Shown: positions 41,701 through 56,700, numbered from the stretch's first letter. The stretch: DNA of 64,000 bases from Laetmonice hystrix (GCA_965235115.1 OZ249436.1:32366001-32430000), one strand, 5' to 3'. Numbers and translations are program-made. Notes: a model not told the origin generated them from the letters alone.

Positions 41701-44700
41701 TGGACCGTTTTCCCCCCTGCAGATGACAGTTACCTTTGGTTGTGAGTTAGTGTTCTTCATAATAGTTGGTGTTGTTGACTGGTCTTGGTCTTGCCTGACA
41801 CACAGTGAGTGTACATACAACCGGTATCACCCCATCTTCCGGTGATTATGTCAAAAAGTTATTAGGTGGGACCCAACCCGAAGAAGCGGCGCCTTTAATT
41901 TACCCGCCGTCCCTATGTCTATCCGTCTGTAGACAGTGATTTCTCAGACGTGTCTGGGTCAAACTGTATGATACTTAAAGGGAGGGAAAACCCACACGGC
42001 AAATAACGTTTCGTAGACCAAATGAAACACCAGCATTTACCTTAGGGCAATAAATGCCACAATTACGTTGTCCTATTGAAGTAATTTTACGTGTAAACGC
42101 CCGATGTGTGATGCCGCTGGTTCCTACCTTGCCCTGCTTGTGTGTTCATCACCTCGGACGTTTACAAAGACTGGGACTCCAAACATCGTGTAAACACGTC
42201 TGTGAGCAGAGTAACCCGTAATATTATGCAATACGCCGTGGTGTGCAGCATTCGGCTGTGATGAACACACAAGCAAGGCAAGGTAGGAACCAGCGGCATC
42301 ACACATGGGGGGGGGGGGGGTTACACGTTAATTACTTCATTCAGACAACGTAATTGTGGCATTTATTGCCCTGAGGTAAATGCTGGTGTTTCATCTGGTC
42401 TACAAAACCTTATTTGCCGTGGGTGTTGTCCCTCCCTTTAATACCGAGCCGAATCGGATGATTTCGGTGTCATTTTTCATCAAAAAAGATTTCCTTTCCT
42501 ACCATACCAGTCTTACGTACCAGCATAACGGAAATATACTATTCCGTTTTTTTCTGGGCCACCCTGTATATGACGTTTCAATGAGATGCATAACTGCATA
42601 TCTCAAGATAACGGTATATAGTTGATATAAATGTAGGAAGTCGTATTTCCATTTCAAATTTCATTTGTCACGATTTCCCTTTACATTAAGTGACCTTGTG
42701 AGGTCAGTCAGGGTCATATCTTTCTAGAAAACGGTTCAAGATAACCACTTACCATGAATAATGGATGAATACATACCTGAGATTTCTTTGTGAATCATGC
42801 ATCAAAGATGTTCTCACATAGACTCTATCTCAAGAATACAAAGTACGCCTAGTTACTTTACTCACAGATAATTAGTGCTTTTTACAGTTTGAGGCTCCTG
42901 CTCCGACCGGCTCATGTATTCTCTTGGATTTCTTCTTTAAAATAGGTAGATTGCCGAAGGTGAAAAGCATCCAGTCACTATCACATTTTCATGAGGTGCT
43001 CGCAAAAGCAACTCATTCACCAATCCTGATATTTTTGGGACAGGCTCTACGTGCATTATAATTCATCAAAATTCCAAGGAACTAAGATTTTCTTCTTCCG
43101 GTGTAACAAAAACACCTCTGCTTACGTGTTGATATAATTTAATAACAAAACACCACTTTGTATTGAATTTCCAGTTCATGAATCGGAGGTGTATCTTAGC
43201 AAAGGACTGTCGGAATATGAAAGATAAAAACCGACAGCCCTGGAAGTTGCATAATAACGAGTGCATCCGTGATTGCCCAAGTGGATACATAGAAGACGAG
43301 CAAGACAGGAACAGTTGTAAGAAATGCGACGGGCCATGTCCAAGAGGTAGTTATGTTTTATACATTAAAATGCATACAGTTCGTCGTAGTTCACTTTTTT
43401 AGCAGAACGTTTTTCCGATATTACTCAGGTGTACGAATTACCAAGTTGTTTGTTCTCCAAGGCTTTGTATAAAATAGAGTCGTAGTATGTATTTCTATGT
43501 TACAAACCGGTACTAAGTAATGAGGCGAGTAAAGGACAGTGTTATACCAGGGCTTGTGTTTGACATGTATTGTAGATTCATCCTGGCTGATACAACAAAA
43601 TGCTTGTTATATAATGGCACTATAATGTGGTTTTCAAGGCTGTAAGAGGCAAATTAATAAATTCAGAAGAAGAAAAAATTACAAAAGTTGTTTTCTGTAT
43701 GACAGTGTGCCTAGCGAAGGTGGTGGACAGCGTAGCGACGGCCCAGAAACTGAAGGGATGCACGGTCATCAACGGCATCCTGGAGATCCAGATCCGAGGA
43801 GGAAGTGAGTACACCTCCCTTATGCACCCCACCGCACCCCCCAGCCCTGCTCACCCCAAACACTCTCTGTGCGTCTGGAGGGAACCGTCTCGGGTCGTCA
43901 CTCGGCCGTGTCGCCGCCTGCCGCCTCTGGCAGCAGCCACGGTCCAGTGAGCATGACACGAACTGGGGTGACCTCCGTCCTCCGTTTGTAAACATTTCTA
44001 ATATTCTAATATTGCCTTCCTAGTAAAAGATTGACAGTCATGTTATTCCATTGACAATTACCATGCAGTTCCAGCTTCCTACAGAACCCCCCCCCACCCC
44101 CACCCCACCCAGGCAGTTTTACACAACAGGGTGACTGCCATATTGATCTTGGCCAAATTTCTTGATGGCAGTGCATTCAGACTCAATAGAACATGGTGAT
44201 TTTGGAAATGAGATTGAGAAGCATGTGAAAAGACCTGAAAAAGACCAAAAGAAGACATTTAATTAAGGCAAGAGATTCGTTAAGATTTAAGGCAAAAATA
44301 CGAACAATTAGAAAAGATCACAACGGTTTAGGAAACTCAGGAGAACATGTTTTTAGAGTACTGCAGGTCGAAGTAACAAAAAAATTGGTTTTCCAATAAT
44401 GAGTGAAGATGAACTAAATTGCAAATGTACTGGTAAAACGTTGCAATTCCTAGGTGCCACGAATACCTGGAAAAAATTGAAAAAGTACCATGGTGTGGAT
44501 CATTAATTAGAACTCCTCTCCTTCTTGAGTATAAGTCGTAATAAATTAAATCCACCTTAGTCAAGTAAGTCACGGGTCGTACTATAGACATTGTGAATTT
44601 GTCTGAACCACGCTTAGATAGGTCCATTTTGTGCTTTATCTGATTCTCCATAACTCTTAGTAAAAGAGTTGGTCTGAAATTCTCAATAATTCTATAATTC

Positions 44701-47700
44701 GCAATAAGCTGTACATGGAGTTTGAGTTTTGTCACACCTTGTTCTAAGAAGATGTGTTTTTTCTGCTAATTTCTTTTGAGGGCCAGGTCCACCAAGGTTT
44801 GCGCCAGCGTGTCTTATTGTGACTCAGCCTGAAGTCCTGACGGCCGCAGACATTAGCCAATTTGTATTCACAAATCATTCCACATTGTTTCCAATTCCAC
44901 TTTTGAATTTTTAGACCGCCGATTTCAAGCAAACCAGACATTTGATCTCCTTGGTATTTATCTTTTTCTGTCTATCCTTGTTTCTTCATAAATATGTATA
45001 TACAGTATTAGAGAGAGCGCCGCCAGTACAATAGACGAATAGTATCAGAATATTTGCAATTGAATTGAAAAGTCTGAAAATCGGTGCCGTTTCTAAAGTT
45101 CCGTTGCCGTTCAGTGTATTAAAGCCCGATACGATGTCTCAATAAGCTAGCTGGCTGGTGGACGAGGTCCTTTATTCCAACCATGTGTGTTTAGCTGGTA
45201 TACGATTTTGACCTATATTGAAGTAAAGTTAATACTTGTAGGTTTTGTAGTAACCTCATTCACATTACCCCAGTTTTCTTGTTGTTTGGATATGTTATTG
45301 CTGTGTGTAATCTGTGTCGTTTCCTTCTGACGTCATTTTTCTTCAATTGTCCTGATTTTGCTTGTTTAGTCTTTTTTTATTTCAGTCCCAGCCGAATATA
45401 TCATTACAGGCTAAAGATAACTGTTACTTTATCCAGCGTGAGTGATATCTCATCGTGGTGACATCTGAACCCCATGATCTAGATGCTATTTTAAGTCTTG
45501 TCCATCACATCTTTTTCTGACCTTTTGAGACAACAGAATGCTATAATTATCATCAATCATGTAAAGTCCGGTTCAAGGTCCCTTTTGTAACAAAATAAAT
45601 GAGTCCAACGTTGAAAATGCTGATTAAATTCGGGAATGCTATTCCTGCTTCAGACATGTTTGAGCAGTTATAAAAGAGTGAGTGCCCCAAGCAAATTCCA
45701 AGTATGTACCACCAGCGGTACATGGTAGATCATGTGTGTACCAGGTTTCACCTGAAATCTTAAACCTCGTATAGAACCAAGCGCTAATTCATTAAAATAA
45801 GCTATAACAGTGTTGCATGCCAATGCGTACACGGAGAGGTCAAAACCTGAAATCTAGATTTATTTCATATTATTGCAGAAAGTTTACCTTTCAAATGTAG
45901 TTTAGGTTGACAGTATCAGACCTCCAAGACTTTTGTGAGTCTGAGCAATGTAGAAGGGCGTCAGAGTTATCAAATGTACACAGTGTATACATATTTATAT
46001 TGTTGGGAGATCGTGAACTTCTAACTTTAGGCCGGATGTTTCTGGATTAATGTCCTTTTCTACGAATTGATGCCAAAGGTCATTGGGTACATTCTCATTC
46101 CGACCTCCTTCTGTCAGGCAATTAATGTACCACGGAAATCCTCATATCGGCCTAGATTACTGCTAAATTACTTTTTGAACTACTCTTGAATCTGTCGTCG
46201 GGGGAAGAAAAATATGTTTTGAATTCGGAAATCGCTTGCTAAGGGTCAAAATATTAATTTGTCTGTGTCCCTCACGGAATTCTAATTGATCCGATCACCG
46301 TGACGGTGCGTGGGGTCCGACGTGGCCGTAACGTGACTGAGGGGCGTGCTGCTCGTAGTGCTGGCCTCGTAACGTCCTGCGCCATCTTACCTCGACCACA
46401 CGTGGTGATAGGAGGAAGGAAGGGGGCCAGCTGTGTATCAAAGTCCGCCGGCCCGCGGCCCAGCCCGTGCTCGTAGATACTACACAGTTTAAAACATGTT
46501 TACCACGCTCCGCACCTTGTCTACCGAGCTCAAGTCCACATTTATTATCATACATACAGGAATGTCCAAGTCGATCTTGACTAGCCCCCCCGGAGGTAAA
46601 GTTCGCATGTTTGTGGGTAGGGAGGGTGAGGTGAAGTGGAGGGGGGGGGGGGGGTACTAAGGCAGACGTCAACGGGCAGCCGTCAGGTCAGACAGTGCAT
46701 TAGACTTGATGTTTGTCCCCTAGTTTGGGAACGGTGATAGAGCTAGTCATTGATTAGGAAATACACCGCACTTGGCCGCCGCGGGAACACATCTCTGGAA
46801 TCTGATATTATGTTCCAGATTTGAAGACATTCAGGCCTAACAATGATCACGTCGGGGCTAGTCAACATGCGGTTGATATTCCTCGTATCAAGGTGAAATA
46901 TGTCTCGAGATGTGTCCGCAGTATTGAGAAAAATTAGGGTGCAAATTTTATTTCGAAATTATTTTTTAATTAGAATCTTGGATCTAAACCTAGATACATG
47001 TAATTATATTCTGGTCCCAGTCAAACTAGGAACGATGGCATTAATAATTTTAGACCCCCCCCCCCGCTCCCTTTACTCAAATATAACAGATATGTAAAAT
47101 TGTTTTTCTAACAGATAGTTTTGAATTACACTTGAGCATTTGATCCTGTACGGTAACCTCTACTATTTATGATAGCACGTTTTGTGTTTTTCGTATTTCT
47201 ATTTTATAATTGCTTACGTTAATCCATATTCTTGTTTTAAAATGTTTGTGTACTACTGTATGTTTTTTTGTTATACTTCACATTAAATCTTTTACTAGCA
47301 AAAATACTCAACTATGATATCCGTCTCAGAAACCTAATGAGCTATTTTAGTGAACATTGATGTCTTGTCATGATTAGGTGAGCTCATGGTTAGGTGAATT
47401 CATATACTTGGAAGTTCAAGTTTAGGAACTTGAAACCAATTGGTGACTCGAGTTCTTGTAAGGAAGATGGTGAAGGGCCTGAATATATTTGTCTGTTGAT
47501 TTTAAGTCTTGTTGCTTAAACGTTACGCGATCAAAGTTTCTCCTGTTTGTATCACCACATGTATAATAACATTATTTGTATTTTTTTCTAGGGGTATAAA
47601 AAATATCAGCTGCGTTATCTCAACAGAGGGGTGTTAAAAATGTCTTTTGCTTAAACTCATGCCTTTGCAGGTAACATTGGCCGAGAGCTTGAAGACAGCC

Positions 47701-50700
47701 TGGGCCTGATCGAAAAGGTGACAGCATATGTCAAGGTTGTCCGCTCGTTCGCACTAGTCTCTTTACAGTTTCTCAAGAGTCTGAAAGTGATCCAGGGAGA
47801 CCGCATGTTCAATAATAGGTAGGTGAAAGCGATGTGCGGTCAGTCAGCAGATGGGAGGAGGATATGGCGGCCAGCCAGCCGTTTCCCAGTAGGGGGCAGC
47901 AGGTCGGGTTGTTGTCGGTCGGCCGGTCGGTCGTTAGGCCGGTCGGTCGGTAGGCCGACAAGTGGGCGATCCGTGTGTGAGCGGTCGGGTTGGCTGTACT
48001 TGTGTCCGTCCTGTGATGTCCTCCACGGGCCAGCAGGTGTCGCCACCGTCCAGTCCTGTGTTACACCACCGTGGTCGTCGTATGATTGAGATATGTGTCC
48101 GTCTGCCTGTCTGTCTGTCTTTACAGTTTTTTCAATGTGTTTGCACCTTTCTTCTCACACAGACCGAGTGATGCAGGAGCTAGAGGAGAGTTTGGGAGAC
48201 ATTGAGAGTGTCTCAGCCATAAAGATAATCCGATCAGTGGCCATAGATTCCCTCCGCTTCCTTGCCAAGTTGAGACTTATCACTGGATCGGTCCTGCATA
48301 ATAGGAGGTGGGCCACATCTTGTAACTACAGCTTTTGACGGCCAGTGTCCCCCTTATATCGAAACCAGTCTTCAGAATGCGCTGAACGTCTGCCCCTTGG
48401 AAAACAATCTTCGATCATCTATGTGTTTTGTGTGTCATGTCAGATTGTGTGAATTTGTTTTACTACACTGACACATAAACTAGAGCACATTTTAGTGGCC
48501 TCGGTTCCGTATATAAGTGTGTCCACCTTCCAAAAGATTTTAACCGAAGAAGATTGATTACCAACGGGTCAGGTGATGGAATGTGCTTTGCTGAATGGCG
48601 AATAGTTCGCACTCAGATGTAAAAGCTTTTAACTGCATGCTTTTTATTACATAGATGCTTGTAGCTGCTAAACTGGTCAAATCCCAAGGTGCATCCAGGG
48701 CAGGTGTATAAGGGCAGGTACCATTGTAGTGTTAGACTGAGTTGAAATGAAGGGAATACCTTACGATCTGTAGAAGGACATACAGATGCGGTTTTGTTCC
48801 TCGCTACAATTAGAACCCACCAGCAGTCAAAAGTTTTGGCAAAGATGAACCAACAACCCATGGGAAGTTTGTGGCATTAATTGTTAGGAAATCTCATTAA
48901 TATTGTGAATTGGAATAGCATTTCAGATTTTTAATTCTAGTTAGTGTGAACCCATAAAACCTCCACAAAGCTCAAACGATTGGAACCCACCAGCAGTCAA
49001 AAGTTTTGGCAAAGATGAACCAATCACCCATGGGAAGTTTGTGGCATGAATGGTTAGGAAATCTCATTAATATCGTTAATTGGAATAGCATTTCAGATTT
49101 TTAATTCTAGTTAGTGTGAACCCATAAAACCTCCACAAAGCTCAAACGATTAGAACCCACCAGCAGTCAAAAGTTTTGGCAAAGATGAACCAACAACCCA
49201 TGGGAAGTTTGTGGCATGAATGGTTAGAAAATCTCATTAATATCGTTAATTGGATAAGCATTTCAGATTTTTAATTCTAGTTAGTATGAACCCATAAAAC
49301 CTCCACAAATGTCAAACGATGTATTCCTTGTCCCGAACCTGGATTGGACCTGGTCAGCTCTCTGTCATGCCAGCACTATTACGCCTTCGTGTATGTTCTT
49401 TTTTTGGCACTTGGAGCTTGGTTTATGCGAGAATTATAATCAGTGCCCCAGCCAGTATGTCCGCTTGCAAAAGGAAATGATAAGAAAAACCCAGTATAGG
49501 AGACAAAGTGCTTGGCGTGATTTCTATAAATCTGGTCATATTTTATGAACGGCTAAAACACGCAAACTTGCACTACGCATGAGCCATCATAATTAGTTGG
49601 CATGTTGGTGATATGTTTAAAACAAACACTAGTTCCGCTTTCGCTGATAGATTTTTTTCTCTCTATCTCTCTCGAAATTTGGCATGTCTCCGAATACTCA
49701 ATAAACACGACTAATGTAATGTCCTCGCAAGTCCCCCCTCTCCTCCCCACCCCACCCCACCCCACCCGCCACCGTCTGGGTGGAAGGCTGTAATCTACAG
49801 GTGTAATTTAGAGAGCCACTCAGGAGGATGTGGCGGGCAGACCAGGGCTGGTGTCCGCCGCCGCTACCCGCAGACATCGTGATAAACCCAACCAGGTACT
49901 GTCAAAACAAGCTCATCCATCAAAACCGGAGACCACACACAAACACACACACAAGACAATGGAAACAAGACGGATCTCCACTCCCAGTCGTCGCCCACAG
50001 CCAGTCTAGTGGTGGCATCATTTCCCCTCTCCCACCCCTTTTTGTTTTTCTTAAATTTCTTTACATATCACATTGGAACTGATGGGAAAAAATGCATATA
50101 TATTACGTTTTGGGAGAGTAGTTTCGTTTCTCTTAAGTCTGCTGGTATTTTGGTGCAAGGGGAAAAAGACGCTTGTTATTTGTAAAATGTTTTGTTTGAG
50201 ATCATCTGCTTATAGTGCCATGTAGTCAATTAGCTATTTTGCATTCCATATTAGATTTGATTTGCACGTTTATATGTGTAATTTTAACAATATTACAAGA
50301 TTTATAGTTTCTATTTAGAAGTAACTTGTTCTCATGATTTAAAAAAATTATTTGACGTATTTGTGCTATGTGCTTTCTAAAGATAATTTAGAGTTGCGTC
50401 ATGTGCTTGATTATCAAGTTTGTGAAGTTTCTTAGTTTAATTTACAAACTATGAAATACGTGCTCCTACTCGTGATACTGTGTGCCACTGAACGCATGAT
50501 ATGGTAGGTACCGAGGACATTCAGTGCCGGTATCACCGGCTGCTGTGAACACTAACGAGTTGCCCATCAGACGACAGTTACAGAGCTCTGTGTTAACTAT
50601 GCCATGTTTGTTAAGTTTATGTTGAAGGTTGTTTTGATATTCGTTGAGCAGTGTTAGTAATAGACCTGAACTAGGGACAAAACCATGCCATGACCTCCTT

Positions 50701-53700
50701 ACTCATTACTTGCTTTTATGCCAAAGTTTTTGCTTTGCCGACTATCCAAGCAACATTCCATACTGGTCCCGGAGGTTAATGTAAATTACAAGGTGGTTTG
50801 ATGTGACAAGAAATATTTTCTTCTCGAGATTTGCTTATGTATTTTCTTCAAGCTAATAGAAATATGCAGCCAACGCCTTTGGAGTATTTGAGATTTTTTT
50901 AGAACTGTCTGGGAGCTAGGACAGCTGATTTGGTGGTATATGCGTCCATGTGTAGAGTTTCTGCAGATAGAGTAAAGGAATGTTAATGGGGTTGATACAA
51001 TTTTCGAATATAACTAATATGACTATACATGTATCCCCAAGGGATCCGATAATGGGCCAAGTTTGGTCAACATAGTAGGTCAGCTGGCCTCTTATTTAGC
51101 CGTCATTCTGATTTTACCAAGGTAGATGCTAAAAATATTCTGAGTATGCTTTTACATTGAAAGTTTATCGAACAAGTTGAACAATGTGCGAATTCAGCGT
51201 AAATAATTGAGTTGGTCAATATTAAACAAATTTGGTTTTGTGTGGATAGGTCAGTTGGCTTGTCATTGAGCTTTGGATTGGGTTTCAGTAGGATATATCG
51301 AATTTTGATAATATGATGGTTGAATAAGACGACTTCCGTCTAAAGTAGAGTACAAAAGTGAGCTACTGTTACTGTTGACCAACATAAGACACACGTACTG
51401 TTAAAGACGTGTCATACTGGGTCAACTTTTGGAAATACCCGGTAGCAAATTTAAAGAGAGTGGGAACAGAGAGGTCGGCCTTTCTGGCTGGGTTGTGTGA
51501 CTCGTATTTCATCATATCTTTGATTGAGGTGGTGTCTTTCTGCGAATTTGCGTAAGTTGTTCTGAGAACGTGTATAGCCCAGCCCCTTCCTTTCTATTCT
51601 TAGTATTTATAGAAAAGGAAAAGGCCTTGGAAAAGGCATCAGATAAAAACCTTTCAGTTTCAGTGATATTGCAGAACTGTCATTTCAAAAGGGGGAAAGG
51701 TAGTGGACCTGTAATTTGTGGAATTTTTTTATAGCTGCCAGTATCTCACGAGCCTTAGCTGCACAAATGATGACCTATTCTTACTAAAGTGTTAATAACA
51801 TGGGTCGATTCAGTAGATTATAACCCCCCCCCCCCCCCCCTTTCATCAATCCTTTCACTGGGCAGTAAGCCCAGGCATGGCGGAGACGTCGGTTTGGGAG
51901 AATCGTTTTTTCTTCTTCTAACAAGGCTGGCCTATTCCTCAATGTATCTTGTGATATTTTTATAGGACATACTGACTTAAATAACGGGGTCATGCTTTTG
52001 AGACTGCACCCCATGTTGAACTACCCGCAACCAACCAGCCCTTCACTGACCTGACCCTAAACAGCCCCAGTAACGTTCTTGACTTTTTCCTCATATCTCA
52101 TGGTAACCTAAGTCTGGATCGACCGATAATTTGGGCCAAACTTATTTTTCTCTGGGAACGGCTGATAACATACTGAACCTTGTAGGGTGGAAGTGATTGT
52201 CGGAGATATATCGTAGACCGCTAACGTGCCGGACTGCAGGGAGACTGGTGCACAATATGAATTGGTTTGTGGTTCATCAGTACTGAGCTGGTGGGTAATA
52301 TGGTTGAAGGGAGGGAGGGGGGGGGGTCGTGCCCCTCCAGCCCCTGCACCACGGCCGGTTGGACTCTATTCAGTCCAGTCTGTGTTCCAAAGGTTGCGTT
52401 CTAGTGCTCACCAAGTTGGTTCTCCCCCCCCCCCCCCCCCAGCAGTGAACTAATGTCTAGTACAATCAGATTGGTAGGTGACCCCAACACATGCTGTCGT
52501 CACCTGCTTGTAAGAAGAAAGAAAAAAATTAAAAAAAGGAAGATCTTGCCAGCAGTAGAGCGTGGCTCCCTGTTCTTCATTGTAAGACAAATGGTTCAAC
52601 AACCATTATCGAGAAAGGTCGTTTGGTGAGTTCATGATCGCAGACTTTGATATCCACCTTATGTATGTGCCCTTTGTCGTGCATGGACTGTGAAGTCAGC
52701 AGTAATGGGAGAGACAGAAAATGACAACATATCTGAAAACCGAGTACCAACGTTCTTCATAGAACCCCGAGTTTCCGAGATGTTGGCAGTGAGGCACGGG
52801 ACTGAGAACGATACTACACAAGTAATTAATAAGGCCTGATGATGCTGATAATTTCTGATAATTGAAATTGTATTTTATTTTTAGTCGCTGTCGTTCACTT
52901 GTGTTTTATCAATCAGGCCTTGTTTACACTGTTTGAACATCTTTGTTTTCGGGGACTAAACATGCAAGGATCGTAAAATCAATTTGTTTTGGCAGAAAAA
53001 GCTATCCGAAATTTGTATGGATTGTGACTTTGTCAGCTGACAGGAAAGGTAAATCATTTGTAGCTCGGCCAGATTGCAGATTACCCATGTTGCCCAGGAC
53101 GATTGTTGTGTGTGCGTGTGGGGGTGTCCATTAGGGTGGGTGCTTGGGTGGGTAGGAGGGAATAGTAGTGACAAGATAGTACAACGATTTCAATCGCTGA
53201 AATATGCGTCTGTTTCAGGAAATGGTTTTGAATATATGTCATTGAAAGGGAACAAAATCCTTACCCGCACAACTTCGTCTTAAAATTTTATCCGAATGAT
53301 ACCGTGTAGCATGTACCGGTATTGAATTATAGTAGACACACTACAGGTATTTCATCATAAATTCCTCATAAATTATCGTTTTGGCACTCTGAGCATATAT
53401 TTAATATGGTATAGGACTAAAGCAGTCGATAGTGAACACTTAATTGTCAGCAGCTTCAGTGACCCGAGGAGGTATAGAGAGAAGGAATTAGATTTGGCCA
53501 TGTTTATAGAGAATGAGGCCAAGCAGCTAGTGCAGAACGTATAGGACATTTCAGTTCACAAGTTGAGTGCTAACGGGTTTCGGCCATAAGTTCATGGTAG
53601 CATTGATAAAGTCCAGTCTTGAATAGGACTTAGTGAACATTTTTTTCACTCCAGTGAGCTTATTTTTGTATATACAAGTACAAATGATAGGTTTAAAAAA

Positions 53701-56700
53701 ATTAATATAGGGGTTTCTCTACCCATTGACTGAAATATGGCCTTCTGTATGTGAACAGTAAACAGAAGACCAATTAAGGGCACTAGTTAAAACTACTAGC
53801 GTTATTAAAATTTCACAATAATGACTGACATTGGTGTTCAATTCCATTGGTCAGGTATTCTCTCTTCGTCCTGGACAACCAGAATCTTCAGGATATCTGG
53901 GACATGAAGACCCATCCAAAGCTGACGCTCGCTCAGGGAGATGTCTTCTTTTATCAAAACAGTAAACTCTGCTACAATAAAATTGTTGAATTTGTGAAAT
54001 CAGTTGGTCGAGAGGTCAATGAGCAGAATGTTTCACCGGTGAATAACGGCGACCAAGTGGCATGTAAGTGGAGGTCAATGTGATTTTACTGTTGAGGTTC
54101 GTAACTCAGAGAGCAGAACTGAATTCAGCTATCATGTATGTAGTTCTGTAGACAACTACATTTTACTTATTTTTTGTCGATCAAATGAAGAGTTTTTCAA
54201 AGCCGCAATTACTCGCCGAAAGTGGCTGTTGTAATAATTGTACCCACTCAGAACGGAATATAATGGAGATGGGACGTGTAAAGATAAATGCACAGCTAGA
54301 GGTAGGGGGGGAATAACGTACCTGTTTCGATTAGGAAGTTTTGAGATTACCGTTACTCTCAGTAATTCTGTAGCATGCATGCGTGCTATATTTATGAAAA
54401 ACTGATGATGTGCGAGTTTCATGGTTTGTAATTTGATGAGTCAACTATTTATAGTGGGGCTACATTTAAGAGAGGTCTGGATGAGTTGTTGTAAGTGATT
54501 TTTCTTGTGTTTGTAGGCAACATCAGTCAGATGACCCTTGAGGTGACAAGTTTGCAGAGTACGTTGGTTGTAGTGAAGTTCAGTGTGTTCAAAATACGTG
54601 ACACGCGGAAGCTTCTTAGTTACGTTATCTACTACAGGGAAGCGTAAGTATCATCGGGTATAACTTACTATTCTGAAGAAAAATATACAACTTCTAGTAA
54701 CATTTCATGTCAGCTCTGCTTTACAAAATAGGTCTTCAAAAATGCAGGACTTTGTAATAAGAAGCCTCTGTCGAATAAACTATAATTCCTACTCCTTTAG
54801 TTTGTAAATTTTGGGATTTATAGTATCTAAAGATGACCAGCATCACAAAGTGTGAGAAGATGTTTGACACGACTTCCATTAATTTCCTATTCCAGGCCAG
54901 TGAGAAACGTGACCATTTTTAACATCAAGGATTCGTGTGGATCTGACGAGTAAGTTGTAACAAGTAACTGCATGCCTTCTGGATGTATCCATAGTGAAGA
55001 GTAGCACAGCTACACTGGCGTCTGTGGTGATGACCAGTATCAGAGCTGATACCTTAATAAGAACAATATGAAATCTAATTTAAGAAATTATGAAAGAAAG
55101 ACTTGGGATCTGCAATGAAGAGTACCCTATTTAGAACTGGCTGAATGTTTGTTTCAGTTGGCAGACTCTAGATGTACGTGCAGGCGATGGAAGCGAGAGG
55201 GATGATTATATAGCCGAGGTTATTTACAACCTGAAGGCTTGGACTCAGTATGCCATGTATGTACAAACGTACACAGTGGCGATGACCAGTCAAGGGGGCA
55301 TCTCGAAAATCATATACTTCACAACACTTCCAACAAGTGAGTTGAATGAACAGTGATATGACAAGAATATTAAGCTTCTTAGTGTCTGACTCCATTTATA
55401 ACAAATCTCTACCAATTGCCAATCAATCTTCCATGTAATTTTTGACCACGAAATATCTTAGTATCTGTTTTCAATGGCAAATTTGTTATTGTGCCTCCAG
55501 CACCGACCCATCCGAGGGACATTAAGGTTGAGGCTGTGTCTCCATACGAACTGAAGGTTCGCTGGCTGCCTCCCAGCAAACCTAATGGGAATGTGACCCA
55601 TTACCAGGTTTACTGGCAACCGCAACCTCCCAACCAGGAAAAACTTGACCAGCGCAACTACTGCAAGGATAGTAAGTGACACTCGTATCACTTAATCTAA
55701 GGACTGTTACAGGAAAAGTATGGGGTAGTTCATCTCATTATTAGAATCTTCATGTTTTCAGTGAAAAATAATTAGCCAGGGGAAACCAATGGTTAAGATA
55801 AGATGCAAGAATCCGTCAGAAATTTGTGATTTTATTAATTTGGACTAAGAAAATTTAAAGTACAATACGGCTAGCTGCCGTGCCAGCATGGTAAAAGGGT
55901 TATAACATTGTGCTGTAGGACTGCACCTGTCTATGAAACGGCGGAAAAATGAGGTAGAACAGGAGACCCATGACAACGAAACATGGGTCGGAGAGTGCTG
56001 TAAGTGTCCCAAGTCTGAGGAGGAAGAGCAGGCTGAGGAGGAGGAACGCCACATGCAGATCACCTTCGAGAATTTCCTCCATGATTCGGTCTACATTAAA
56101 AGGTTTGAATTTATGCTTAACTGCTTCAGAATCCTATCTACATAGTCTAGCAGAAGCTGTGTCTGTAATTGAAATTGGTATGTGGAATGGAATATTATAT
56201 TAAAACAAAATTAGGCCCCCCCAAAAAAATTCCCGATTTCTGGTCCAAAGAAAATTTCAAAAGTGGTGCGGTGACGAGGTTTTTTTTTTTTTTTAATTTT
56301 TTTTTTTTTGGTGATAGCTGGCTAAGATGGTAAGCCTCATAACAATTATCATGTAAAATGAACTCATAGATAAGGAACATGAGCTTTGCTGTCATCGCTT
56401 TGAATACAAACACACTTCCGTTGCAGTCGGTTAATGAAATATCCATTACAACAATGGTTAGTTTTAAGCCTTACCGCTAGGTGGCAGCACAATTCACAGT
56501 CATCCAAGGTGAGGGCAAGAAAAAAAACACTGATGCGCGGCATCTTAAGTGATGCGCGCGCGGACCAGAAACCGGGAATTTTTTTTTTTTTTGCCTTATC
56601 GCTGGAGTATCTTTTTTCTGGGCTGGGGGAAGGGGCAGATTTGAGTTGATGAGTGAGAGATTCAGTTATGTGTCCTGAATTACATTGAGCCATTGAACAA

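What the first reader, a model, noticed from the sequence alone, without database searches (positions are those of the whole stretch)
47882..50089. Long-range RNA duplex that would loop out exon 6b
Seen: the intron between 6a and 6b pairs antiparallel and in colinear order with a GC-rich island ~1.5 kb downstream of 6b. Helices (G-U allowed): TTTCCCA 47882/TGGGAAA 50083; GTCGTTAGGC 47930/GTCTAGTGGT 50004; AGTGGG(C)GATCCGT 47961-47974/ACGGATCTCCACT 49970-49982 (13 bp, one bulge); TTGGCTGTACTTG 47990-48002/CAGGTACTGTCAA 49893-49905 (12 of 13); GTGATGTC 48013/GACATCGT 49873; TCGCCAC(C)GTCC(AG)TCCTG 48040-48058/CAGGAGGATGTGGCGG 49821-49836 (16 bp); TTACACC 48061/GGTGTAA 49800; GTA(T)GATTG 48080/TAATCTAC 49791. 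Eight nested helices in order seem hard to attribute to chance. Known: docking/selector pairings control mutually exclusive exons in insect Dscam, 14-3-3zeta and Mhc. Inference: this pairing sequesters 6b and favours 6a.
Basis: partly seen in the sequence, partly recalled or inferred. Interest (0 to 1): 0.85.

Follow-up and report, generated by a model that had tools for sequence, protein, structure and literature searches.

The report
Swappable exons in worm insulin receptor
This insulin-receptor gene, probably from an annelid worm, really does splice in one or the other of two duplicated exons for part of its outer domain, a pattern seen in several related animals and not found in the papers searched, but the long RNA duplex proposed to control the choice is no better than chance.

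Summary
All eight helix strings are at the stated coordinates. Shuffles give 8.6-13 colinear helices and equal energy. The full structure lies 54 kcal/mol above the optimum, with pair probabilities of 0.012 or less. Natural variants weaken three helices without compensation. Two of several tests did favour its core.

The real feature is the exon pair. 6a (47671-47818) and 6b (48163-48307) encode alternative versions of the insulin-receptor L2 segment (human 349-396). One run's contigs join each exon separately to exon 7. Including both, or neither, gives a premature stop. 6b orthologues exist at 91% and 63% identity. Other animals carry two or three tandem copies. Seven literature searches found no report.

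Short helices to upstream intron 5, or from one island motif, remain unproven candidates for tuning the choice.

The parts
43714..43804 (+). Coding part of the upstream constitutive exon ('exon 5'), ending IQIRGG; donor GTGAGT at 43805
   Evidence: 86% identical to annelid insulin receptors
46714..46735 (+). Ud: candidate upstream docking site, 20 bp complementary to M; lies in a GC-rich island 46270-46800
   Evidence: top tile pair of 4,960 but not family-wise significant; about 0 probability in contiguous folds
47671..47818 (+). Exon 6a, 148 nt (3n+1), L2 segment, ancestral-like version
   Evidence: Pfam Recep_L E 1.3e-7; human INSR 349-392; contig 26 of run X4 joins it to exon 7
47856..47878 (+). 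S1: 5' arm of the local hairpin; 20 of 24 identical to S2 in the island
47856..48012 (+). Local rod-like hairpin in the 6a-6b intron; its tip is a self-pairing GGUC repeat (47914-47953)
   Evidence: helix probabilities 0.79-0.96 along the stem, 0.95-0.99 for core and tip in larger contexts; z -4.9 on a hand-picked window, -2.6 on a grid window
47878..47899 (+). M: element complementary to Ud upstream (-31.6 kcal/mol) and, more weakly, to E3 (-22.1) and E2 (-18.5) downstream of 6b
47986..48060 (+).
48163..48307 (+). Exon 6b, 145 nt (3n+1), divergent L2 segment with a one-residue deletion
   Evidence: Recep_L E 0.0027; INSR 352-393; contig 27 of X4 starts exactly at 48163 and joins exon 7; orthologues P0002, P0003
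48308..48321 (+). Weak donor GTGGGC plus conserved flank (read-through peptide RWATS is kept in P0002 and P0003)
48345..48358 (+). E2: 14-mer also found 20 nt after an exon copy in locus L012
   Evidence: 3 of 300 shuffles; 1 of 36 downstream-flank pairs tested
49720..50100 (+).
   Evidence: RNA contig 28 of X4 covers 49869-50083
49822..49845 (+).
   Evidence: the shared 15-mer has 5 exact copies in 627 Mb, 2 of them here; 13 of 300 shuffled introns give such a match
53855..54063 (+). Downstream constitutive exon ('exon 7')
   Evidence: single genomic match

Best explanation
A tandem exon duplication gives this insulin/IGF receptor gene two interchangeable versions of the middle of its L2 domain. 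SHOWN: each exon is spliced on its own to exon 7, and only single inclusion keeps the frame. INFERRED: double inclusion and double skipping are removed by nonsense-mediated decay. Joining of 6a to 6b is further hindered because the 344-nt intron folds on itself; with its outer helices closed, the 6a donor would sit only about 25 nt from the likely 6b branch point. INFERRED: the 6a/6b choice is set mainly by splice-site competition and splicing proteins (by eye, 6a has a good donor and a short pyrimidine tract, 6b a long tract and a weak, conserved donor), perhaps tuned by one or two short long-range helices. At protein level the two L2 versions probably differ in dimer allostery or ligand preference (inference).
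For: Exon use: X4 contigs 26 and 27 join 6a and 6b separately to exon 7, and no 6a-6b join is listed. Frames: 5-6a-7 and 5-6b-7 are open; 5-6a-6b-7 stops at codon 93 of 197 and 5-7 at codon 47 of 100. All 9 exon copies measured are 3n+1. 6b is conserved at 91% and 63%. Arrays of 2-3 copies occur in 4 of 5 metagenome loci and in the Ridgeia gene model. The local hairpin core has probability 0.95-0.99 in all three larger contexts that contain it, and its window is the most stable of 236. The X2 alleles keep it (-134.9 to -140.6) while reader helix 4 falls from -14.3 to -6.7.
Against: One run and one sample, and contigs drop rare forms, so absence of the 6a-6b join is weak. NMD was not tested. 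The hairpin's z is -2.6 on an unbiased grid, rank 13 of 236, and the whole-intron z is -1.8. Its tip is a dispersed GGUC repeat. The X2 insertion stabilises it no more than 124 of 400 random 7-mers, and the SNV+deletion ranks 44 of 468. Inter-exon introns of relatives are mostly unstructured (z +1.3, -1.0, +1.0, -2.1), so the hairpin is not an ancient mechanism. The outer helices needed for the steric block have probability 0.74-0.90 only in the isolated intron. Splice-site strength was judged by eye.
Confidence: 0.5

Rival explanations
1. Bidirectional or competing short pairings, as in Drosophila srp or human ATE1. An element just 3' of 6a pairs upstream (M 47878-47899 with Ud 46714-46735) and loops out 6a. 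Alternatively it pairs with E2/E3 just 3' of 6b and loops out 6b.
For: The best helix between the inter-exon intron and the upstream intron beats shuffles in the window (0 of 40), L013 (1 of 80) and L014 a-b (1 of 80). M/Ud gives the top two of 4,960 tile pairs. L013 and L014 share an 8-mer 3' of exon a whose exact complement lies upstream in both; it is the top pair in each, with a U-A/A-U swap next to the core. E2 and an M-like element flank a copy in L012 and are each other's best partners.
Against: The tile-map null minima reach -4.9 to -6.4, 2 of 11 beyond the observed value. Against the upstream island, 92 of 100 and 42 of 100 shuffles match it in the permissive model. M-Ud probability is about 0 in contiguous folds and 0.27 at best in a linker snapshot; M-E3 is about 0. 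The L013/L014 8-mer is matched by 42 of 1000 shuffles, 1 of 12 tests, and its window homologue (47834) has no upstream complement. The two remaining upstream tests were at chance level.
Confidence: 0.2
2. Reduced form of the reader's model. Island motif S2 (49822-49845), a duplicate of S1, competes with S1 for a docking region at 47986-48120. The S2 pairing loops out 6b and favours 6a.
For: S1 and S2 are 20 of 24 identical; 2 of the 5 genomic copies of the 15-mer are here. S2's best partner in 43805-53855 is 47985-48044, and S1's second-best is the same window. The masked intron-island test gave 0 of 100, and the helix 4-8 block 5 of 150 and 9 of 150. An RNA contig covers part of the island.
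Against: The repeat is matched by 13 of 300 shuffles and was found among 10 comparisons. S1-D1 (-30.3) outcompetes S2-D1 (-22.4), S2-D2 (-23.9) and S2-D3 (-25.4). Helix-6 probability is 6e-10. C49821A breaks its end pair uncompensated in X2. No 11-mer is shared between the island and any relative's intron.
Confidence: 0.13
3. The full eight-helix, 200-300 nt duplex forms and sequesters 6b, as first proposed.
For: All helices exist as strings in nested order; two tests favoured its core.
Against: Searches show chance-level energy or negligible probability. 4 of the 40 listed SNVs fall in its 169 nt, against 0.64 expected, or 1.07 if all 67 are counted.
Confidence: 0.05
4. RNA structure plays no part. 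Exclusion rests only on frame/NMD and on protein factors binding the UGUC-rich tract before 6b and the conserved flank after it.
For: All copies are 3n+1. The conserved non-coding sequence detectable in P0002 and P0003 hugs the 6b splice sites. No structure is shared across all loci.
Against: A hairpin with probability 0.95 or more occupies 157 of the 344 intron bases. The upstream-pairing signal appears in three loci.
Confidence: 0.12

Closest known systems
Drosophila srp exon 4.1/4.2 bidirectional pairing (Yue et al. 2016, PMC4691838; read abstract and results sections 5 and 6)
   Same: Two duplicated mutually exclusive exons; elements between them could pair upstream (including the second exon) or downstream (including the first).
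   Different: srp elements are short, conserved in all species surveyed and proven by compensatory mutants.
Human ATE1 exons 7a/7b, R1/R4 competing for R3 (Kalinina et al. 2021, PMC7797038; read abstract and section 14)
   Same: Two similar elements, one beside each exon, both complementary to a site between the exons; S1, S2 and D1/D2 resemble this.
   Different: ATE1's repeats lie immediately upstream of each exon and are highly conserved. S1 and S2 lie downstream (38 nt and 1.5 kb), and their conservation is untested.
Docking/selector systems of Dscam, 14-3-3zeta, Mhc and MRP1, and their origin by duplication of a stem arm (Ivanov and Pervouchine 2018, PMC6071210; read abstract, introduction and start of methods)
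   Same: Tandem exon duplication leading to mutually exclusive splicing. That paper also lists NMD and steric limits as mechanisms for two-exon clusters.
   Different: No single conserved docking site was found here.
Known insulin-receptor splice variants: mammalian INSR exon 11 (PMC2577065, passages), C. elegans daf-2 exon 11.5 (PMC4876481, passages) and DAF-2B (PMC7041946, passages)
   Same: Alternative splicing diversifies one insulin-receptor gene.
   Different: Those are cassette exons in or near the insert domain, or truncations. Here whole homologous L2 segments are swapped through duplicated exons.
FGFR IIIb/IIIc mutually exclusive exons (recalled, from no call)
   Same: Duplicated exons swap part of a receptor tyrosine kinase ectodomain.
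   Different: Different domain and family. A ligand-specificity switch is established there and only inferred here.

Membership tests
Tandem-duplication mutually exclusive exon cluster | Adjacent homologous exons of similar length | tested here: met
   148 and 145 nt; 50% identical over 44 residues; both map to INSR 349-393
Tandem-duplication mutually exclusive exon cluster | Same phase and canonical splice sites; single inclusion keeps the frame | tested here: met
Tandem-duplication mutually exclusive exon cluster | Each exon found spliced on its own in RNA | tested here: met
   X4 contigs 26 and 27; one run; the upstream join of 6b is inferred from bin depth, that of 6a is not covered
Tandem-duplication mutually exclusive exon cluster | Double inclusion rare or absent | tested here: inconclusive
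   No such contig listed, but contigs drop rare forms and tables were cut
Docking/selector or bidirectional RNA-pairing control (Dscam, srp, ATE1 type) | Complementarity beyond chance | tested here: not met
For M/Ud the result is inconclusive
Docking/selector or bidirectional RNA-pairing control (Dscam, srp, ATE1 type) | Paired elements conserved across species | tested here: inconclusive
Docking/selector or bidirectional RNA-pairing control (Dscam, srp, ATE1 type) | Compensatory substitutions; variants do not break pairs | tested here: not met
   Within-species variants weaken reader helices 1, 4 and 6, uncompensated where the X2 lists are complete; few haplotypes, unphased; 27 SNVs and 12 indels were not shown
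Docking/selector or bidirectional RNA-pairing control (Dscam, srp, ATE1 type) | Disruption changes the exon ratio and compensation restores it | not testable with these tools
   Needs minigenes
Distant-branch-point steric exclusion (OGDH type; PMC7969005 seen as search listing only) | Branch point near the upstream donor with a long AG-free zone | tested here: not met
   The last AG before the 6b acceptor is at 48125-48126, so the AG-free zone is 34 nt (sequence)
U2/U12 spliceosome incompatibility | One intron end of U12 type | tested here: not met
   Donors GTGAGT, GTAGGT and GTGGGC are U2-like; U12 consensus recalled
Insulin/IGF receptor family | Receptor L domains, cysteine-rich region and tyrosine kinase in one gene | tested here: met
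   Recep_L and PK_Tyr hits; INSR/IGF1R best solved-structure hits; Cys-rich exons seen in ORF list

The most novel reading that the evidence does not exclude
Annelids diversify a single insulin/IGF receptor gene through an old array of two or three mutually exclusive L2 exons, a switch in allostery or ligand preference analogous to FGFR IIIb/IIIc. The choice among them is steered by short competing intronic pairings, mainly an upstream dock that loops out the first copy.
Probability: 0.2. Interest if true: 0.8.

Novelty: new member of a known kind. Interest (0 to 1): 0.5.

Why it matters
The insulin-receptor variants in the papers read here are cassette exons or truncations. An array of swappable L2 exons would let one gene make receptors that differ just after the Arg345/Gly346 surface, which grips the alpha-CT helix in the active dimer (PMC6721835, passages). 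That gives a testable way for an animal with apparently one such locus to tune insulin signalling. It also flags gene-model errors: a public Ridgeia model stitches two copies together. The finding is also a clear example that eight nested helices between a G/U-rich and a C/A-rich stretch are what chance gives.

Tried and rejected
Rfam scan of 43000-55000: 0 matches at gathering score. Third exon copy in the window: none; an HMM of 9 copies found only 6a and 6b in 43805-53854. Island as an inverted duplicate of the intron: 57 of 200 shuffles matched. Island as a dispersed repeat: only its C-tract matched elsewhere. Distant branch point and U12 explanations: rejected from sequence.

DNA of close relatives: a metagenome scan with the 6b alignment found no relative among 133 candidate stretches. 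The DNA behind P0002 and P0003 could not be fetched, so covariation of the island, S2, M or Ud across close species is untested. Protein word searches: 6b found 0 of 33 candidates; exon 7 found 1 of 46. Sequencing-run search: no RNA holder on record. X4 is treated as RNA only because its contigs cross introns at the splice sites. Contig depths (4 for 6a, 11.8 for 6b) cannot rank the isoforms and are not used.

Orthology of the second copies across lineages: the tree of 15 short rows has no starred branch, so one old duplication versus repeated ones is undecided. Shared intron 11-mers: 32 seen against 28.6 expected. Four pairs of cluster members (Patella, Pomacea, two Logan pairs) showed no L2 swap. 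ESM Atlas gave only a Receptor L lead below 0.9. Earlier scan notes: nothing near the finding, by sequence or by words. My initial idea of amphioxus was dropped, because the closest named proteins fetched are annelid. No supplementary files were read; supplements of annelid genome or splicing papers could list this event.

Full report
Setting. The window holds a + strand insulin/IGF receptor gene: Receptor L and tyrosine-kinase hits, with human INSR and IGF1R as the best solved relatives. It lies on contig 1 of a 627-Mb genome. An exon-7 search finds one locus only, a lower bound.

The exon pair. Exon 6a is 47671-47818 (148 nt) and 6b is 48163-48307 (145 nt); they are 50% identical over 44 residues and both match INSR residues 349-393. 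Exon 5 ends at 43804 and exon 7 starts at 53855. Either exon alone keeps the frame. Both together stop at codon 93 of 197 and neither stops at codon 47 of 100. Four runs of one sample were laid on 43600-54150. X4 is not labelled RNA but behaves so. Contig 26 joins 47753-47816 to 53853 and contig 27 joins 48163-48305 to 53853; both are the predicted junctions, given a shared AG. The remaining 25 nt of contig 27 are not listed, but 11.8 x 25 / 352 = 0.84 matches the 0.8 depth of the exon-5 bin (inference). No 6a-6b join is listed, which is weak evidence because contigs drop rare forms.

Conservation of the pair. A search of 1.84 billion representatives with 6b gave 7 hits. P0002 (91%) and P0003 (63%) share 6b's one-residue deletion and read through into a conserved donor flank. 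A metagenome scan gave 5 loci. L014 has three copies between its 5' end and exon 7; L013 has two plus a weak third; L012 and L015 have two each on cut contigs; L011 shows one at a contig end. All 9 copies measured are 3n+1. Of 128 proteins hit by the exon HMM, one, the Ridgeia piscesae model KAK2190050.1, has two copies in tandem; I read this as two alternative exons stitched together. The tree does not settle whether the duplication happened once.

All strings are present: 81 pairs, 13 of them G-U. Its weight rested on eight nested helices being unlikely. They are not: shuffled sequences give chains of 8.6-13.3 helices, and 19-45 of 150 shuffles match the real chain energy. The island windows rank 72 and 169 of 318. 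The co-folding gain is matched by 30 of 60 shuffles. Forcing the structure costs 54 kcal/mol, and helix probabilities are 0.012 or less. None of the eight is in the MFE of 47600-50200. The intron is 61% G+U and the island 60% C+A, which makes such helices easy to find.

Natural variation points the same way. Of 40 listed SNVs, 4 lie in the 169 helix bases, against 0.64 expected; they are partly clustered, and 27 SNVs and 12 indels were not shown. Helix 1 drops from -9.4 to -4.2, helix 4 from -14.3 to -6.7 and helix 6 from -23.1 to -20.9 kcal/mol. In X2 the substitutions on the partner contigs for helices 1 and 6 are fully listed and none compensates; the contigs are unphased. Given the number of tests, I count these as weak.

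What the intron does instead. It folds into a rod, 47856-48012, with stem probabilities of 0.79-0.96, and 0.95-0.99 for core and tip in larger contexts. Its significance is moderate: z -4.9 on a chosen window, -2.6 on a grid, though it is the lowest energy of 236 windows. Its tip is a GGUC repeat found elsewhere in the genome. The X2 alleles keep it, but not much better than random changes would (124 of 400; 44 of 468). Relatives' inter-exon introns are mostly unstructured. Outer helices (47836-47855 with 48098-48118, probability 0.74-0.90 in the isolated intron) would bring the 6a donor within about 25 nt of a TTTAC branch-point-like motif near 48123, a possible steric block (inference; motif consensus recalled).

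Candidate long-range helices. (1) S1 (47856-47878) and S2 (49822-49845) are 20 of 24 identical. Their 15-mer has 5 genomic copies, 2 of them here, and 13 of 300 shuffled introns give such a match. (2) M (47878-47899) pairs 20 bp with Ud (46714-46735) and gives the top two of 4,960 tile pairs, but 2 of 11 null replicates reach further and it does not form in contiguous folds. (3) In five intron sets, the upstream side beat shuffles three times (0 of 40, 1 of 80, 1 of 80; the others 40 of 80, 33 of 80), and the downstream side never did (13 of 40, 17 of 80, 49 of 80, 33 of 80, 18 of 80). L013 and L014 share an 8-mer pair around their first copy (42 of 1000 shuffles, 1 of 12 tests). (4) A 14-mer 38 nt after 6b recurs after a copy in L012 (3 of 300; 1 of 36 downstream-flank pairs). 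None of these is established.

Comparison with what is known. The case works like a two-exon cluster of the srp or ATE1 kind (PMC4691838, abstract and sections 5-6; PMC7797038, abstract and section 14). It meets the tests for a duplicated mutually exclusive cluster. It does not meet, or could not be tested for, the defining features of pairing-controlled ones. NMD is a recognised mechanism for non-triplet pairs (PMC6071210, introduction). The insulin-receptor variants in the papers read are exon 11, exon 11.5 and DAF-2B (passages of PMC2577065, PMC4876481, PMC7041946). Seven full-text searches listed no report of duplicated L2 exons; I saw only the top 15-20 listings where many papers matched, and the library lacks most subscription journals. 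The swapped segment begins just after the IRGG motif, which I number as human Arg345/Gly346 by counting back from Asn349. Those residues contact alpha-CT in the active receptor (PMC6721835, passages), and L2 supports dimer formation (PMC2577065, passages). A functional difference between the isoforms is therefore plausible but unshown.

Verdict. The proposed eight-helix duplex is most likely not a real feature (about 5%). The exon cluster it drew attention to is real (about 90%), shared with other animals including a named annelid, and apparently undescribed. It is a new member of a known kind; interest 0.5.

Noticed in passing
window 49869-50083 and 53688-53875: The only two non-repeat intronic stretches covered by X4 contigs: part of the island, and the intron end running unspliced into exon 7. 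They could be pre-mRNA patches, an internal start site or an antisense RNA; strand unknown.
   Followed up: no
window 48125-48126: A second AG 36 nt upstream of the 6b acceptor would add 12 residues in frame; contig 27 uses the downstream AG.
   Followed up: partly
window 46270-46800: GC-rich island upstream of 6a with none of the 40 listed SNVs (2.0 expected). It holds an E-box-like CACGTG (46399) and a FoxO-like TGTTTAC (46497) (motif names recalled), so it may be an enhancer.
   Followed up: partly
window 43930-43944 and L013:576-590: The longest intron word shared between loci, a 15-mer early in intron 5 of both; role unknown.
   Followed up: partly
window 48806-49320: Three tandem copies of a 170-175 nt unit, 94-95% identical, in intron 6.
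   Followed up: no
window 47914-47957: GGTC-type repeat with 89-95% identical 44-nt relatives on contigs C1, C2, C3, C7, C11 and C21.
   Followed up: partly
L013:2730-2870: A third, weak exon copy whose 3' half matches the HMM (E 0.0004) and which looks frameshifted: a decaying copy or an assembly error.
   Followed up: partly
L012:1717-1760: A local hairpin after the first copy contains the same 11-mer as the 6b donor flank of the window.
   Followed up: partly
L011:1420-1570 and L012:1340-1495: Conserved intron block with self-complementary segments just upstream of their first exon copy.
   Followed up: no
P0011 (KAK2190050.1), residues 95-200: Public Ridgeia gene model with two L2 segments joined by a short filler; probably mis-annotated alternative exons.
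   Followed up: partly
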